A stretch of DNA of 64,000 nucleotides. Source: Rivularia sp. T60_A2020_040 (GTDB lineage Bacteria > Cyanobacteriota > Cyanobacteriia > Cyanobacteriales > Nostocaceae). The position numbers and the translations under genes are program-made. Below, in pieces: positions 18,012-59,814 of this stretch (its first letter is position 1; each line of letters starts with the position of its first letter). The stretch is taken from NCBI GenBank assembly GCA_015272215.1, contig JACYMD010000048.1, positions 4,874-68,873 on the forward strand, given 5' to 3'. The notes beneath the pieces were generated by a model, which was given only the letters and a program-made list of their open reading frames with translations, was not told where the DNA came from and made no database searches.

Positions 18012-18150
18012 ATTAATTGTTTCCAGCGGCGAATTTTATATTGCAAGTGCAAGCTTGGCTACAGCAATTTTATGTACTGCCAGAGTAAGCTGTAAATACC
18101 CTCCGATTGCTTAACCAAACCGCCCTATTTATTTTAGTGGCGGTTTTTTT
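18011..18150 (+). ncRNA. Candidate small RNA, possibly PsrR1 (SyR1)-like
   Basis: About 140-nt non-coding stretch with the core ATACCCTCCGATTGCTTAACCAAACCG (anti-SD-like CCCTCC) ending in an intrinsic terminator. The resemblance to PsrR1 is from memory only and the 5' end is uncertain. Confidence 0.45.
18117..18150 (+). terminator. Rho-independent terminator
   Basis: AAACCGCC...GGCGGTTT stem followed by a T7 tract. Confidence 0.8.
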
Positions 18151-19227: not shown

Positions 19228-19426
19228 CTTTTAGCAATTAGTAGAAGTAGTTTTCATGAAAATGATTTTGTTTTTCTACTTATAATTAAATTTTGTCGAG
19301 ATTTGTAGAGACGTAGAATTTTATTTCTCTACAGTTTTTTAGACTCCTATTGGGCATCGTCTCTATAGGGGCGTTTTTATTTATTATTGATATAATTCTC
19401 TTTCCCATGACTTTTTCGTGGGTTGT

Positions 19427-19487
19427 GAAGTCGGGTTTTTAGGACAATTATCTTTTTTCGAGATATTTAACTGAAAAACCCGACTTC
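19427..19487. repeat. ~61-bp dispersed palindromic element AAGTCGGGTTTTT-N-AAAAACCCGACTT (copies also at 22753-22813 and 53298-53357)
   Basis: Three copies with conserved ~13-bp inverted ends, unrelated interiors and near-constant length. Confidence 0.75.
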
Positions 19488-19687
19488 TAAGTCTTGCAAA
19501 TAGTACACTGAAACTATTGACATATAAACTAACTTACTTCTAAGAATGTGAACCCGGTTGTAAATTAGGCTTTTTTTATTTAAAGGGAATAAACTACTTT
19601 ATCGTAACGTCCATATTGACCTAAAATTCTACACGGGGAGACTGCAAACTCTCACCGAGAATTAATCAAAGCTTTAGGAGTACATCT

Positions 19688-22710: not shown

Positions 22711-23107
22711 ATAGCGTCAGTTCAAAAATTTATTTTTGCTTGGGGGAAAGAAAAGTCGGGTTTTTGAAGATAAATATCTGTAATACAAGATAACCTTGAT
22801 TAAAACCCGACTTCTGTGTTTTTCTTCTATGAATACTATCGTACTTATAAGTTTTGTAAATTAATTTGAATTATCTATACTTCTATTCACAAAGCTAATT
22901 GATAGTTTTTTAATCAAAAATATTGATAAAAATTGACTTAAATAGCGTTGAATACCGATATTAAGGTAGAATTGCCAACACATTTAGATAAATTTTAGCT
23001 CAACTTAAAATCGACAACTAAAAAATATCTGTAGCAAAACTTACTAAAAATTATATAAGGATACGTTAAGTTAAGTTTGCCGTAAATGTAACTACAGCTA
23101 CTTAAAA

Positions 23108-53288: not shown

Positions 53289-53434
53289 TTTATGAAAAAG
53301 TCGGATTTTTATCGGAAATATTTGCCATATTAGACAATAATCCTAAAAAACCGACTTATAATTATGATATTTAATACCCAAGTTTAGTTTTTAAAAACCA
53401 GTTTTACGATACTTTTATTAATTATCAAATAGTT

Positions 53435-56669: not shown

Positions 56670-56761
56670 AAGAGTTAGTTGTTGGTTGTTAGTGGTTAGT
56701 AGTTAGTTGATGGTTGTTGGTTGATAACTGATAACTGATTTCCCTGTAATTTTTTTATATT

Positions 56762-57559
56762 ATGATTTCACAATGGAATGCTTTGTTAAAAAATCTTGGT
56801 GAATGGGAAGGTTCTTTTACTCGTTTATCTTCTCAAGGTGAATTATTAGAAGATATCCCCAGCATCGTTTCTTTGCAAGGTTTGAACAATAATCAAACTA
56901 TTCGTCAAATTGTTCGTATTGGAGAAGATGAAAAGGTTTTGGAATATAGTTCCCTAGGAAAGGGAATCATGTTTTTTGAAAATGGTGCTTTTTCTAATGG
57001 CTCTATTCAGTTAGCACCCTTTTCTACTTTTGGTGCTGAATTTGGTTTTATTCACGATCATCATCGTTTACGTTTGGTACAACTGTTTGATCGAAATCTC
57101 AAGTTAGATAAGTTTACTTTAATTCGAGAACATCTTGCTCAAACTCCACCTTTACACAGTCCCATTTTAACCGTCGATGCTTTGTTGGGAGAATGGATTG
57201 GTGCAGCCCTAACTATCTATCCTGATTTACAAAAGCCTGATAGTTATTCTACTCAAATGCTTTTACATCTCGATCAAACCGGAAATTTAACTCAAACTTT
57301 AAATTTTGGCGATCGCACTATTTCTTCTACTGCTACTGTCAAAGACTCTATTCTCTTTTTTGACCAAAATCAAATACAAGTATTACTCCTTCCCAATGGT
57401 GCTTCCGTTACTTCTCCCCTTCAAGCCCGCTTAGGTGAACCTTTGTTTTTAGAAGTCGCTTGGTTAATTAACCCCAATCTCCGTCAAAGAATGATTCGCA
57501 GCTATAACCACAAGGGAGAATGGCTCAGTTTGACTTTAGTTACGGAAACAAAAATTTGA
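56762..57559 (+). CDS. DUF3598-family protein
   Basis: QWNALLKNLGEWEGSFT, FENGAFSNGS, LLGEWIG, RQRMIRSYNHKGEWLSLTLVTE. Confidence 0.8.
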   Translation: MISQWNALLKNLGEWEGSFTRLSSQGELLEDIPSIVSLQGLNNNQTIRQIVRIGEDEKVLEYSSLGKGIMFFENGAFSNGSIQLAPFSTFGAEFGFIHDHHRLRLVQLFDRNLKLDKFTLIREHLAQTPPLHSPILTVDALLGEWIGAALTIYPDLQKPDSYSTQMLLHLDQTGNLTQTLNFGDRTISSTATVKDSILFFDQNQIQVLLLPNGASVTSPLQARLGEPLFLEVAWLINPNLRQRMIRSYNHKGEWLSLTLVTETKI

Positions 57560-58612
57560 AAATTCAGATTTTTTCGTTTTCAAAAGAATTTTCTTGTTTC
57601 CGCTTCCAAAAATGCGCCTTTTTTGCTATACTCTTATAATGGGCATATAATCCAAATTTTTATAGCAGGCAATATTGCCATTATATTAATAATATTCCAT
57701 TATTCTACCATTTTTCCTCGACCCATAGTTAAATATTTTTTTTTGAAATCACTTTTTTAAAAAAACTTAACAATCAACGAAAGAAAGAAGAATTAGATTG
57801 CTCCGGTTTTATCTAACAAAAGAATGTTAGTTAGATGGAACGCGCTGCACAATTATCATTTTCATACCACAAAAGCCGTTTTTTCGGATTTTAAAATCAC
57901 CTTTAAAGCTAAGAATAGCTCAGCTTGACTTGAGTTACGCAAACAAAAATTTGAAAATTCAAGTTTTTTCGTTTTCAAAAGAATTTTCTTGTTTCCGCTT
58001 CCAAAAATGCGCCTTTTTTGCTATACTCTTATAATGGGCATATAATCCAAATTTTTATAGCAGGCAATATTTCAATTGTAAGAATATTATTAAATTATCC
58101 TACCATTTTTCCTCGACCCATAGTTAAATAATTTTTTTTGAAATCACTTTTTTAAAAAAACTTAACAATTAAAGCAAAGAAGAATTAGATTGCAAAGCCC
58201 TATTTAATTGGGAATAGCCGCAATTGTCGGTTGAATGAAATACAAATTAAAGTTGTCGAACAGAGCATGACCACAGAAGCCGGTTTTTTTAGAGTTTAAA
58301 TTAACTTCAAAGCTAAGAATGGCTCAGTTTGACTTTGATTACGGAAACAAAAATTTGAAAATTAAGATTTTTTCGTTTTCAAAAGAATTTTCTTGTTTCC
58401 GCTTCCAAAAATGCGCCTTTTTTGCTATACTCTTATAATGGGCATATAATCCAAATTTTTATAGCAGGCAATATTTCAATTGTAAGAATATTATTAAATT
58501 ATCCTACCATTTTTCCTCGACCCATAGTTAAATAATTTTTTTTGAAATCACTTTTTTAAAAAAACTTAACAATTAAAGCAAAGAAGAATTAGATTGCAAA
58601 GCCTTATTTAAT
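57517..58612. repeat. Three-copy tandem array: ~280-bp conserved cores (57517-57800, 57912-58192, 58316-58596) separated by variable spacers; period 395 and 404 bp
   Basis: Manual alignment. Each core begins with the DUF3598 3' end and ends with the aat 3' end (reverse strand). Unique spacers at 57801-57865 and 58193-58269 are each followed by a semi-conserved ~46-bp segment. Confidence 0.92.
57604..57632 (+). promoter_or_regulatory. Sigma70-like promoter motif TTCCAA-N17-TATACT with extended -10 (copies at 57999-58027 and 58403-58431)
   Basis: Exact 17-bp spacing, TG upstream of the -10, and a second TATAAT just downstream; identical in all three cores. Confidence 0.5.
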
Positions 58613-59148
58613 AAAAGCTGATATTCCTTGTCATCAATAGAGTAAGCACCAAAGCGTTGTAAATGAGGATTCATCATCTGAGCGTCAAAAAAGGTGAATT
58701 GGCGCTGGCGTAATCTTTCGACCAACTTAACCATAGCGACTTTCGAGCCTTCGGGAATACGAAAAAACATAGATTCACCAATAAAAGCACCATTAATAAC
58801 AATACCCAAAATACCTCCAGCAAGTTCGTCACCTTGCCAAGTTTCAAAACTATAAGCCCAACCGCTTTCCCATAGAGAATAATAAATATCCTTTAACTCC
58901 TGAGAAATCCAGGTAGAGTCTCGGTTAGCACATCCATCAACTACCGCTTTAAAGTCGCGGTTAATAGCAGTTGAAAAACGTTCTTGGTTGATAACTCGTT
59001 TTAAAGACTTGGGGTAACGAAACCTGTCATCCAAAGGAATTAAAGTGCGATCGCGACTGCTGTACCATCCCAAGTGATGATTTTGATCAGCCATGAGAAA
59101 ATAGCCTTGAGCGTATGCTTGGATGATAGCGGCGACATCATATTGCAT
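58573..59148 (-). CDS. aat: Leucyl/phenylalanyl-tRNA--protein transferase
   Basis: AYAQGYFLM, FSTAINRDF, WISQE, ETWQGDELAGG, FIGESMF, SKVAMV, FDAQMMNPHLQRFGA. Confidence 0.92.
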   Translation of the reverse strand: MQYDVAAIIQAYAQGYFLMADQNHHLGWYSSRDRTLIPLDDRFRYPKSLKRVINQERFSTAINRDFKAVVDGCANRDSTWISQELKDIYYSLWESGWAYSFETWQGDELAGGILGIVINGAFIGESMFFRIPEGSKVAMVKLVERLRQRQFTFFDAQMMNPHLQRFGAYSIDDKEYQLLLNKALQSNSSLL

Positions 59149-59321
59149 AAAATTTAGAAACAATTAAAATCAGAATACCGGCTAATTTAACCGACTTTCT
59201 TTTTATAAGTTAGTTTTGGGTGATTACTTTTGAAAGGCTATTATCTGCCAACTTGTAGGTTTAGAAAAATTCAAATAAATTAAAACAAATTAAAACAAAT
59301 TAAAAATTAAAAATTAAAAAG

Positions 59322-59651
59322 ATGACTCAACCAATACCACCGATAACTTTACCACCTGCGTCGAATCCTCAACAAGAAGGAAAATGGTTGCAACAGAGCT
59401 TACATTCCTTTTTGGATGAAGAATTTATCCCAGAAACCATTAATCAAACAATAGCCGAACGTGCCGCACAAATTTTCGTTCGACAGCGGATGGAAGGGGA
59501 AAACGATTTAGGAGAATTAGTTCTAGCGATTGTCACCGAAATGCAATCCTTTGACTTTTCCAAAAGCTTCTATGGAGAATTTGCGATCGCGAATGCAGTT
59601 AGCGATCTTCTTTTGGAAAGCTTAGGAATTGATAAATGTTGCGGACAATGA
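59322..59651 (+). CDS. Conserved cyanobacterial hypothetical protein
   Basis: WLQQSLHSFLDEEFIPE...RQRMEGENDLG...SFYGEFAIANAVSDLL; coherent composition and a good ATG start. Confidence 0.75.
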   Translation: MTQPIPPITLPPASNPQQEGKWLQQSLHSFLDEEFIPETINQTIAERAAQIFVRQRMEGENDLGELVLAIVTEMQSFDFSKSFYGEFAIANAVSDLLLESLGIDKCCGQ

Positions 59652-59814
59652 ATTTTAGATTTTAGATTTTAGATTTTAGATTTTGGATTGATTTTGATGA
59701 ATTACGCTAAAAACGTTCAATGTAATACCATTAGCTTCTAGAGATGGGGTTTACTCTCACAAAGTCGGAGCAAATGTGTAATTCAAAATTCAAAATCCAA
59801 AATCCAAAATCGTA

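What the first reader, a model, noticed from the sequence alone, without database searches (positions are those of the whole stretch)
57517..58612. Three-copy ~400-bp array: long conserved cores containing both flanking gene ends, separated by unrelated spacers
Seen: three cores of about 280 bp with periods of 395 and 404 bp lie between the convergent DUF3598 and aat genes. Each core starts with the last 13-14 codons of DUF3598 and ends with the last codons of aat. The spacers (65 nt at 57801-57865; 77 nt at 58193-58269) do not align with each other and, apart from the first 16 nt of the second, do not continue either gene. Both are followed by a shared but diverged ~46-bp segment (ACCACA.AAGCCG.TTTTT...AAAGCTA). 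Cores 2 and 3 are nearly identical in the middle where core 1 differs, while cores 1 and 3 share the 5' end, so the pattern is mosaic. Inference: simple unequal crossover would not add new DNA at each junction. The repeat-spacer-repeat layout suggests repeated insertion with duplication of a long target (att-like scars of integrating/excising elements) or an expanding ncRNA cassette array.
Basis: partly seen in the sequence, partly recalled or inferred. Interest (0 to 1): 0.7.

Follow-up and report, generated by a model that had tools for sequence, protein, structure and literature searches.

The report
Tandemly duplicated intergenic region, concerted evolution
The whole non-coding gap between two convergent housekeeping genes of a Rivularia-type cyanobacterium has been duplicated head-to-tail to three copies that keep each other alike by gene conversion; it is not a scar of integrating elements, and it matters only if the conserved promoter-like element in each copy proves to be a small-RNA gene.

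Summary
The array is real: three units with periods 395 and 404 bp and cores of about 285 bp that are 92-97% alike. Each core starts with the last 13 codons of the DUF3598/BFA1-like gene and ends with the aat tail. The two spacers are unrelated to each other.

Both junctions recur in independent assemblies of relatives. Spacer 1 is in L002, L003 and metagenome run X5. Spacer 2 is in L001 and in contigs of X1 and X2. So the array is not an assembly artefact.

Eight of 19 Rivulariaceae loci carry 2-3 copies, with at least four junction types. In L024 and L012 the junctions still hold recognisable DUF3598 3' fragments, and L024 and L002 have small mobile elements inserted there.

Cores are more alike within a genome than between genomes, which indicates gene conversion. 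There is no phage or plasmid similarity and no integrase. The core occurs only at this locus.

Best reading: ordinary, recurrent tandem duplication with concerted evolution and decaying junctions. Each core carries an invariant TATAATGGG motif and other conserved motifs, so it is a candidate small-RNA gene. No canonical terminator, Rfam match or transcript was found. The origin of the spacer DNA is unresolved. Interest is modest.

The parts
56762..57559 (+). DUF3598 / BFA1-like gene (265 aa). Its last 13 codons plus the stop (57517-57559) form the 5' end of core 1.
   Evidence: ORF. Pfam DUF3598_N 8e-63 and BFA1_C 5.4e-57, the latter matching to the last residue.
57517..57801 (+). Core 1 (~285 nt): DUF3598 end, 3' hairpin, A5-N6-T6 element, TATAATGGG, variable middle, TACCATTT, A/T-rich hairpin and a diverged copy of the aat tail.
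57543..57602 (+). Long hairpin (CGGAAACAA...UUGUUUCCG) spanning the DUF3598 stop; repeated in cores 2 and 3. Probably part of the DUF3598 3' UTR or terminator.
   Evidence: strand folding gives -16.7 kcal/mol, z=-2.3. Reading L007 by eye shows arms with changes on both sides.
57607..57625 (+). CAAAAA-TGCGCC-TTTTTTG palindrome (also 58002-58020 and 58406-58424), conserved in all relatives. Candidate DUF3598 terminator.
   Evidence: Alignment A2. In a mat metatranscriptome one contig of a relative ends on the last T of this element, L007:6870. This is a single observation.
57635..57643 (+). TATAATGGG, a -10-like hexamer plus GGG (also 58030-58038 and 58434-58442). A.AATGG is invariant in all 24 aligned cores.
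   Evidence: Ga (L030/L031) and L028 copies read.
57636..57684 (.). Imperfect inverted repeat: ATAATGGGCATAT (57636-57648) and ATATTGCCATTAT (57672-57684), around a conserved AAATTTTTA.
   Evidence: RNAalifold finds only this helix. About 85% of cells pair on the + strand and 81% on the - strand, with little covariation.
57644..57706 (+). Fast-evolving middle segment of the core. It holds the core 1 versus core 2/3 differences.
   Evidence: 67-73% identical to L001-L003, while 4-fold sites of the flanking genes are 90-96% identical.
57802..57865 (.). Spacer 1. The first ~21 nt (TCCGGTTTTATCTAACAAAAG) continue the aat tail. The remaining ~43 nt are unique and include an inverted copy (GTTAGATGGAA) of the preceding TTTTATCTAAC.
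   Evidence: Orthologues at ~90% in L002 and L003 and in run X5.
57866..57912 (.). 46-nt segment, type a (ACCACAAAAGCCGTTTTTTCGGATTTTAAAATCACC...).
   Evidence: 89% identical to the segment that follows spacer 2 in L001.
57913..58193 (+). Core 2, an inner copy. Its DUF3598-derived 5' end has a stop in the gene's frame (GAA TAG).
   Evidence: Its 5' signature CAGCTTGACTTGAGTTACGCAAAC is shared with L001 core 2.
58194..58269 (.). Spacer 2. The first ~15 nt continue the aat tail; ~61 nt are unique.
   Evidence: 91% identical in L001 and present in X1/X2 contigs. Weakly related to the junction of Ga0209911_100032 (z=3.5).
58270..58316 (.). 46-nt segment, type b (GACCACAGAAGCCGGTTTTTTTAGAG...). AGAAGCCGGTTTTTT resembles one arm of a dispersed hairpin element.
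58317..58612 (+). Core 3. Its 3' end is the real aat end.
58573..59163 (-). aat (leucyl/phenylalanyl-tRNA-protein transferase). The last 13 codons lie in core 3.
   Evidence: ORF. Pfam Leu_Phe_trans 2.4e-60.

Best explanation
This is a copy-number-variable tandem duplication of the whole interval between the convergent DUF3598/BFA1-like and aat genes, clipped inside both gene ends.

Shown:
- Duplications of this interval are frequent in Rivulariaceae.
- The copies within one genome are kept alike, which indicates gene conversion and unequal exchange.
- The DNA at the unit junctions is not kept alike.
- In relatives, the junctions contain decaying DUF3598 3' fragments and insertions of small mobile elements.

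Inferred:
- The two unrelated spacers of the window are old junction DNA. It has either decayed past recognition or been replaced by indels, template switching or small insertions.
- The window's three-copy array combines the two junction types that relatives carry singly, reached by unequal exchange and conversion.

Inferred with less confidence (about 0.35-0.4): the middle of each core, between the probable terminators of the two genes, is an independent transcription unit. It would be driven by the invariant TATAATGGG element, that is, a lineage-specific small-RNA gene. The array would then raise its dosage or allow sibling variants.
For: Relatives:
- Syntenic loci were fetched. L001, L002 and L003 each have two cores.
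- Spacer 1 is ~90% conserved in L002 and L003; spacer 2 is 91% conserved in L001.
- Logan contigs of stromatolite metagenomes span a two-copy array with spacer 2 (X1, X2) or carry spacer 1 (X5).

Other duplications of the same interval:
- L024 has two copies. Its second unit begins with a 67-nt DUF3598 fragment at 97% identity. L006 is 97% identical in DUF3598 yet has one copy.
- L012 has three copies. Its junctions are homologous to the DUF3598 3' end (scores 41 and 19.5 against shuffle mean 10, sd 2).
- L028 and L030/L031 each have two copies.

Junctions accept insertions: two hairpin elements in L024 and a ~190-nt MITE in L002.

Concerted evolution: paralogues are 92-97% (window), 99% (L003) and 95% (L002) identical, against 80-90% between genomes.

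The core occurs only at this locus (nhmmer; metagenome scan).

Candidate transcription unit: A.AATGG and the motifs AAATTTTT, CAATATT.CC.ATTAT and TACCATT are conserved across species whose 4-fold sites are only 63-72% identical.
Against: - In the window clade neither the spacers nor the 46-nt segment can be shown to derive from DUF3598 or aat (ungapped 17-18/47, p=0.04-0.09 at best).
- Spacers 1 and 2 are unrelated. A simple 'duplicate, then duplicate again' history therefore does not explain them without a replacement event.
- The partners of spacers 1 and 2 are swapped relative to the two-copy alleles. That needs at least two recombination or conversion steps.
- Against the small-RNA part: the scan found no intrinsic terminator (0 found, 1.2 expected). 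There is no Rfam match. RNAalifold gives only -1.4 kcal/mol. The -10-like motif is one arm of a palindrome, so it may be conserved for another reason. No transcript data were available.
Confidence: 0.62

Rival explanations
1. Neutral by-product. The core is only the two 3' UTRs and terminators of the convergent genes plus filler. The interval duplicates easily, the copies are homogenised by gene conversion, and the array has no function of its own.
For: - The scan found no canonical terminator for a separate gene.
- There is no RNA-family match and only weak consensus structure.
- Eleven of 19 loci manage with one copy.
- A metatranscriptome contig of a relative ends at the A5-N6-T6 element. 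This fits a role for that element as the DUF3598 terminator.
Against: - The ~110-nt middle lies between the two probable terminators. It keeps invariant motifs, including a perfect -10-like hexamer, across species whose synonymous sites are near saturation.
- Duplication has arisen or been kept in at least four lineages.
Confidence: 0.3
2. Scars of repeated integration and excision: a long att-like target duplicated at each event, with the spacers as remnants of the inserted elements.
For: - The spacers are unrelated to each other and to the flanking genes.
- Small mobile elements do land in these junctions in relatives.
- Part of the 46-nt segment resembles one arm of a dispersed hairpin element.
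Against: - No phage or plasmid similarity. IMG/VR gave only chance-level 18-19-mers in unrelated sequence.
- No integrase or transposase within about 9 kb.
- A 285-nt duplicated target is far longer than known att cores or target-site duplications (own knowledge).
- In L024 and L012 the duplication junction is plainly the DUF3598 3' end joined to the end of the core.
- The core is not found anywhere else.
Confidence: 0.04
3. The conserved palindromes act as DNA. They would be a binding platform for a regulator or nucleoid protein, or a cruciform-prone site, rather than an RNA gene. Amplification would multiply the binding sites.
For: - Conservation is at the sequence level and largely symmetric on both strands. 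The reverse strand of the profile hits itself.
- Pairing is similar on both strands, 85% against 81%.
- The CCATT/AATGG motif recurs 3-4 times per core.
Against: - No known cyanobacterial operator consensus fits (recalled from memory, not tested).
- No gene starts nearby that such a site could regulate, because both neighbours end here.
Confidence: 0.08
4. Assembly artefact: a collapsed or expanded repeat in the window's assembly.
For: - No reads of this genome were available.
- Several MAG contigs break at the core (L004, L015, L026, L027). The region is therefore hard for short reads.
Against: - The three cores differ at specific positions and the two junctions are unique sequences.
- Each junction is found independently in other genomes and in Logan contigs.
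Confidence: 0.03

Closest known systems
Tandem segmental duplication with concerted evolution (gene conversion or unequal crossing-over between repeats), as for bacterial tandem amplifications and rRNA or tuf paralogues (general knowledge)
   Same: - Head-to-tail copies.
- Copy number differs among close relatives.
- Paralogues are more alike than orthologues.
- Mosaic sharing of variants between copies.
- Sharp identity boundaries where homology has been lost.
   Different: The junctions in this clade hold 43-61 nt that cannot be traced to either end of the duplicated segment. The two junctions also differ from each other, so an extra replacement or filler event is needed.
NsiR1 array of Nostoc sp. 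PCC 7120: a ~60-nt sRNA in 12 tandem copies upstream of hetF, each with its own DIF1 promoter; central copies identical, peripheral ones diverged (PMC9045159; Ionescu et al. 2010 as cited there)
   Same: - A heterocystous cyanobacterium.
- A tandem array of non-coding units, each with a promoter-like element.
- Some copies are identical and others slightly diverged.
- The end copy overlaps a neighbouring gene in antisense.
   Different: - No sequence or structure match to NsiR1 or any Rfam family.
- Units are ~400 bp, not ~60-nt genes.
- No DIF1 (TCCGGA) motif at -35 of the conserved -10.
- No terminator detected, and no expression shown.
Trichodesmium tandem repeat array giving highly abundant sRNAs: 7 repeats of 736-973 bp, of which a ~250-nt transcribed portion is almost identical and of unknown function (review PMC6596454, citing Pfreundt et al. 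2014)
   Same: Long units in which a ~250-300-nt portion is nearly identical between copies while the rest of the unit varies in length and sequence. Filamentous cyanobacterium. Function unknown.
   Different: Homology to that array was not tested. Here there are only 3 copies, located between two convergent housekeeping genes whose ends are part of the repeat. Transcription is unproven.
att-site duplications flanking integrated elements, and CRISPR-like repeat-spacer arrays
   Same: A repeat-spacer-repeat layout with unrelated spacers.
   Different: - Repeats are 285 nt, against tens of nt for att cores and CRISPR repeats (own knowledge).
- Spacers are conserved between species rather than acquired.
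- No integrase or cas genes.
- No mobile-element similarity.

Membership tests
Tandem duplication with concerted evolution | Head-to-tail direct copies of one segment | tested here: met
   TRF period 404, 2.7 copies, score 1627. Spacing 395 and 404 bp.
Tandem duplication with concerted evolution | The junction consists of the distal end of the segment joined to its proximal end | tested here: inconclusive
   The aat-tail side is present: 15-25 nt. The DUF3598 side beyond 57517 is not detectable in the window clade. It is met in L024 (97% fragment) and L012.
Tandem duplication with concerted evolution | Paralogous copies are more alike than orthologous copies although the duplication predates the species split | tested here: met
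   Within a genome 92-99% identical; between genomes 80-90%. Orthologous spacers are shared between species.
Tandem duplication with concerted evolution | Copy-number variation among close relatives | tested here: met
   Copy numbers of 1, 2 or 3 across 19 syntenic loci. L006 has 1 copy and L024 has 2 at 97% DUF3598 identity.
Tandem sRNA gene array (NsiR1-like) | Each unit has its own promoter | tested here: inconclusive
   TATAATGGG is present in every unit, and A.AATGG is invariant in 24 cores. No -35 lies at 17 nt. The motif is also a palindrome arm. The promoter scan as a whole is not enriched: 7 found against 6.0 expected.
Tandem sRNA gene array (NsiR1-like) | Each unit has an intrinsic terminator | tested here: not met
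   0 terminator-like sites against 1.2 expected. Only A/T-rich hairpins next to T runs were found.
Tandem sRNA gene array (NsiR1-like) | Unit-length transcripts detected | not testable with these tools
   No RNA run holds the window or L001 sequence. The mat metatranscriptome X14 covers the genes of a relative but not the core.
Tandem sRNA gene array (NsiR1-like) | Homology to NsiR1 or another described RNA family | tested here: not met
   No Rfam match at gathering score. None better than E=1.1 in the region.
Integration/excision (att) scars | A recombinase gene or mobile-element remnant adjacent | tested here: not met
   The neighbours are FtsX, ribosomal protein S14, endonuclease III, an M50 peptidase, SerRS, kinases and pentapeptide-repeat proteins.
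Integration/excision (att) scars | Spacer or repeat similar to phage, plasmid or island ends | tested here: not met
   No blastn match in phages or plasmids. The IMG/VR pattern hits lie in unrelated sequence at about the chance rate.
Dispersed repeat / MITE | Copies at several unrelated loci | tested here: not met
   The nhmmer profile of the core hits only the DUF3598-aat interval in all DNA held. All four metagenome matches are syntenic. Whole genomes could not be searched.

The most novel reading that the evidence does not exclude
Each core encodes a so far undescribed, Rivulariaceae-specific small RNA (or another non-coding functional element) driven by the invariant TATAATGGG. The locus has been amplified repeatedly and independently in this family. 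The 63 nt just downstream of the promoter-like motif turn over faster than synonymous sites. The copies would then be sibling regulators under diversifying selection, or subject to palindrome-templated mutagenesis, rather than inert duplicates.
Probability: 0.3. Interest if true: 0.55.

Novelty: new member of a known kind. Interest (0 to 1): 0.35.

Why it matters
As it stands, this is a clean natural example of concerted evolution in a small bacterial tandem duplication. The cores are homogenised, the junctions decay and collect small mobile elements, and copy number changes between near-identical strains. It also explains why short-read MAG contigs break at this locus.

It would matter more if the conserved element in the core is expressed. 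It would then add a lineage-specific multi-copy small RNA to the short list of tandemly encoded cyanobacterial sRNAs (NsiR1 and the Trichodesmium repeat RNAs). It would also carry an unusually fast-evolving segment that could be tested for target diversification.

Tried and rejected
1. **Spacers as decayed gene ends.** I tried local alignments, anchored global alignments with dinucleotide shuffles, and ungapped right-anchored comparisons. Nothing was significant beyond the first 15-25 nt of aat tail. This is not proven and not excluded.
2. **Spacer 1 versus spacer 2.** No similarity. Spacer 2 versus the junction of Ga0209911_100032 is weakly significant (z=3.5).
3. **Mobile-element origin.** No phage or plasmid matches. 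IMG/VR gave one 19-mer and two 18-mer hits, all in unrelated sequence. The junctions have no other copy in the window or in the fetched loci.
4. **The 46-nt segment as half of a dispersed hairpin element.** AGAAGCCGGTTTTTT against the arm AGAAGTCGGGTTTTT matches 13 of 15, but no second arm is present. I kept this only as a lead.
5. **Known RNA families.** None.
6. **Conserved RNA structure.** RNAalifold finds only the palindrome helix, at -1.4 kcal/mol. The G-U asymmetry, 24 on the + strand against 10 on the - strand, is too weak to assign a strand.
7. **Coding potential.** A tiny ORF starts at the ATG inside TATAATGGG. It reads MGI* in the window but gives 8-9 codons ending ..KFL in some relatives. 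It is not conserved, because half the lineages have a stop at codon 4 (read).
8. **Expression.** No RNA runs hold the window or L001. One mat metatranscriptome of a relative covers both genes but not the core.
9. **A chromosomal dif site, an NtcA, Fur or LexA box, or the DIF1 motif.** I considered these from memory and dropped them because the consensus sequences do not fit. They were not formally tested.
Full report
**Observation**

The array is in the sequence as described. Tandem Repeats Finder reports 57517-58612 with period 404, 2.7 copies, 88% matches and score 1627. The repeat finder gives three copies spaced 395 and 404 bp. Two long stretches of the core each occur exactly three times in the 64-kb window, with none expected by chance.

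The left gene (56762-57559, + strand) is a DUF3598/BFA1-like protein, and its Pfam match runs to the last residue. The right gene (58573-59163, - strand) is aat. Each core begins with AGAATGG, 43 nt before the end of the DUF3598 stop codon, and ends in a copy of the aat tail.

The surroundings are housekeeping genes: FtsX, ribosomal protein S14, endonuclease III, an M50 peptidase and SerRS. There is no recombinase, transposase or cas gene.

**Source organism and relatives**

A scan of one genome per species with the DUF3598 protein returned 27 loci, almost all Rivularia or Calothrix-type Nostocales. The closest are:
- L001, 'Richelia sp. SL_2_1' (97% amino-acid identity);
- L002, Plectonema cf. 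radiosum LEGE 06105;
- L003, a Rivularia MAG.

In 19 loci the DUF3598-aat synteny can be read. A profile of the core hits only this interval, once, twice or three times. A pattern scan of metagenome contigs found four more pieces, all syntenic.

Copy numbers are:
- 3 in the window and L012;
- 2 in L001, L002, L003, L024, L028 and the JGI contig Ga0209911_100032 (L030 plus L031);
- 1 in eleven loci.

Several MAG contigs end in or beside the core (L004, L015, L026, L027). This is expected at a repeat.

**The junctions are real and old**

Spacer 1 (57801-57865) is about 90% identical to the inter-core DNA of L002 and L003. Spacer 2 (58193-58269) is 91% identical to that of L001 (sequences).

Logan contigs from stromatolite metagenomes give independent support. 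X1 and X2 each have one contig that spans a complete two-copy array with spacer 2. X5 has pieces with spacer 1.

So an assembly artefact is very unlikely. No reads of the window's own genome were available to confirm three copies.

**Are the spacers decayed gene ends?**

In this clade I could not show it. Only the first ~15 nt of junction 2 and ~21-25 nt of junction 1 continue aat. The junction 1 string TTATCTAACAAAAG is in register with aat and matches the real aat end of L003, TTCTCTAACAAAAC.

The remaining 43 and 61 nt, and the shared 46-nt segment, show no significant similarity to aat or to the DUF3598 coding sequence upstream of 57517. Anchored global alignments give z near 0. Ungapped comparison gives 17-18 of 47 at best, p=0.04-0.09.

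The two spacers are unrelated to each other. Spacer 2 is weakly related to the junction of the more distant Ga0209911 array (z=3.5), so that junction type is probably the older one.

Spacer 1 holds an inverted copy of the adjacent aat tail (TTTTATCTAAC ... GTTAGATGGAA). It forms a 12-bp hairpin, with the whole junction at z=-2.0. This hints at a fold-back or template switch when the junction was made, but it is weak evidence and the hairpin is not kept in L003.

**What sister lineages show**

The same interval has been duplicated elsewhere, with junctions that can be read.
- **L024.** The second unit begins with a 67-nt DUF3598 3' fragment that is 97% identical to the gene. It is followed by two tandem copies of an 83-nt hairpin element and then the rest of the core. 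L006 is 97% identical in DUF3598 and has a single copy. The change is therefore recent.
- **L012.** Both junctions are homologous to the DUF3598 3' end but decayed. Local scores are 41 and 19.5, against a shuffle mean of 10 with sd 2.
- **L002.** A ~190-nt MITE with terminal inverted repeats and a TCTAA target duplication sits inside spacer 1.

The hairpin element of L024 belongs to a dispersed family (GAAGTCGGGTTTTT-N33-AAAAACCCGACTTC). The window has members at about 19.4, 22.8 and 53.3 kb. The start of the 46-nt segment (AGAAGCCGGTTTTTT) resembles one arm of this element, which I keep only as a lead.

Together these loci show the normal life of such a duplication. A join forms between the core end and the DUF3598 3' region, then the junction decays and collects insertions because it is not needed.

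**Concerted evolution and mosaic**

Cores are more alike within a genome than between genomes:

| Comparison | Identity |
|---|---|
| Within the window | 92-97% |
| Within L003 | 99% |
| Within L002 | 95% |
| Within L001 | 84% |
| Between genomes | 80-90% |

Yet the shared spacers show that the duplication predates these species. That is the signature of gene conversion.

Cores 2 and 3 are identical from 57644 onward, and cores 1 and 3 share the 5' end.

The 5' signature of core 2 and the type-a 46-nt segment follow spacer 1 in the window but follow spacer 2 in L001 and in X1/X2. The type-b segment follows spacer 2 in the window but follows spacer 1 in L002, L003 and X5. The breakpoint lies exactly at CAT(G)|ACCACA.

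The flanking genes place L001 closest to the window, whereas the cores place L003 closest. The array has therefore been reshuffled by unequal exchange or conversion, possibly between lineages. I could not derive a unique order of events.

**What the core is**

Twenty-four cores from species whose 4-fold synonymous sites are only 63-72% identical to the window still share the following:
- CAAAAA-(GC-rich 6 nt)-TTTTTG(C/G)TA;
- an invariant A.AATGG, usually TATAATGGGA;
- AAATTTTT;
- CAATATT.CC.ATTAT, the inverted repeat of the ATAATGGGAAT arm;
- TACCATT;
- an A-run followed by a T-run.

The 5' part folds into a long hairpin spanning the DUF3598 stop (z=-2.3). In a mat metatranscriptome, one contig of a relative runs from DUF3598 to the last T of the A5-N6-T6 element and ends there. 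This is a single hint that the element terminates DUF3598.

The 3' part holds an A/T-rich hairpin beside the aat stop. That leaves about 110 conserved nucleotides between two probable terminators, headed by a perfect -10 hexamer followed by GGG.

From my own knowledge, a GGGA discriminator after TATAAT is the optimal contact for sigma region 1.2 and can support promoters that lack a -35 element. This was not tested here.

That is why I consider a small independent transcription unit, most likely a small RNA, plausible. Against it:
- the terminator scan found nothing;
- Rfam has no match;
- the consensus structure is weak and has little covariation;
- the -10-like motif is itself one arm of a palindrome, so the opposite strand carries a similar motif;
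- no transcript data could be obtained.

No conserved ORF is present.

**An unexplained point**

The 63 nt after TATAATGGG (57644-57706) are only 67-73% identical between the window and L001-L003. Synonymous sites of the flanking genes are 90-96% identical and the 5' part of the core is 89-96% identical. The same segment is about as similar to distant species, at 73-77%.

Fixed motifs are thus embedded in positions that turn over faster than synonymous sites. Possible causes are clustered palindrome-templated mutation, diversifying selection on an RNA, or exchange of alleles. None of these was tested.

**Comparison with known systems**

Mechanistically this is a tandem duplication with concerted evolution.

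If the core is expressed, the nearest analogues are two cyanobacterial arrays. One is the NsiR1 array of Nostoc: 12 tandem ~60-nt genes, each with its own promoter, with central copies identical and outer copies diverged (PMC9045159). The other is the Trichodesmium array of 736-973-bp repeats, of which a ~250-nt transcribed part is nearly identical (PMC6596454). The core is not a member of the NsiR1 family, because there is no Rfam match.

The att-scar reading fails its tests: no recombinase, no mobile-element similarity, repeats far too long, and spacers inherited rather than acquired.

**Verdict**

The 'ncRNA cassette array' idea remains possible but unproven.

The best explanation is recurrent tandem duplication of a convergent intergenic region, homogenised by gene conversion, with junk junctions. 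My confidence is about 0.6 for this explanation as stated, and higher for the claim that it is a duplication rather than integration scars.

Interest is modest at 0.35. It would rise if a transcript from the core is found.

Noticed in passing
window 18087-18146 (+): Rfam match to NsiR4 (nitrogen stress-induced RNA 4) at 40.8 bits, just above the gathering score of 40. This fits a cyanobacterial source.
   Followed up: no
window 19426-19488, 22751-22815, 53297-53359; L024 7183-7337; L001 419-611; L002 2461-2523: A dispersed family of ~65-nt palindromic elements: conserved arms GAAGTCGGGTTTTT / AAAAACCCGACTTC around a variable ~33-nt centre. Two tandem copies are inserted in the L024 duplication junction. 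The L001 copy carries a nested insertion.
   Followed up: partly
L002 7054-7240: A ~190-nt MITE-like insertion inside the orthologue of spacer 1. It has terminal inverted repeats GAGCGTGTTTAT... and a TCTAA target duplication.
   Followed up: partly
window 56674-56723, 59267-59305, 59652-59689, 59780-59811: Short tandem heptamer or decamer repeats in intergenic DNA (GTTAGTT, AAATTAAAAC, ATTTTAG, AATCCAA). The last two are inverted relative to each other. From my own knowledge they resemble the STRR repeats of heterocystous cyanobacteria.
   Followed up: no
window 57824-57928 (+): A small ORF in junction 1, MLVRWNALHNYHFHTTKAVF... (34 aa). It stays in frame for about 20 codons in L002 and L003, and 5 of 10 window-L003 differences are synonymous. 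The C-terminus is frameshifted in the window. It is probably not a gene.
   Followed up: partly
window 57644-57706 and the equivalent parts of cores 2 and 3: The segment just after TATAATGGG differs from close relatives by 27-33%, although synonymous sites of the flanking genes differ by 4-10%. The cause is unknown.
   Followed up: partly
L007 6854-6870: In mat metatranscriptome X14, a 240-nt contig of a relative runs from inside DUF3598 and ends on the last T of the AAAAA-GGGGCG-TTTTTT element, 75 nt after the stop. This is a possible transcript 3' end.
   Followed up: partly
L004, L015, L026, L027 (contig ends): Short-read MAG contigs stop inside or right next to the core or within DUF3598, as expected where a repeat breaks assembly.
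   Followed up: no
window 59322-59651 (+): A 109-aa ORF next to aat has no Pfam match.
   Followed up: no
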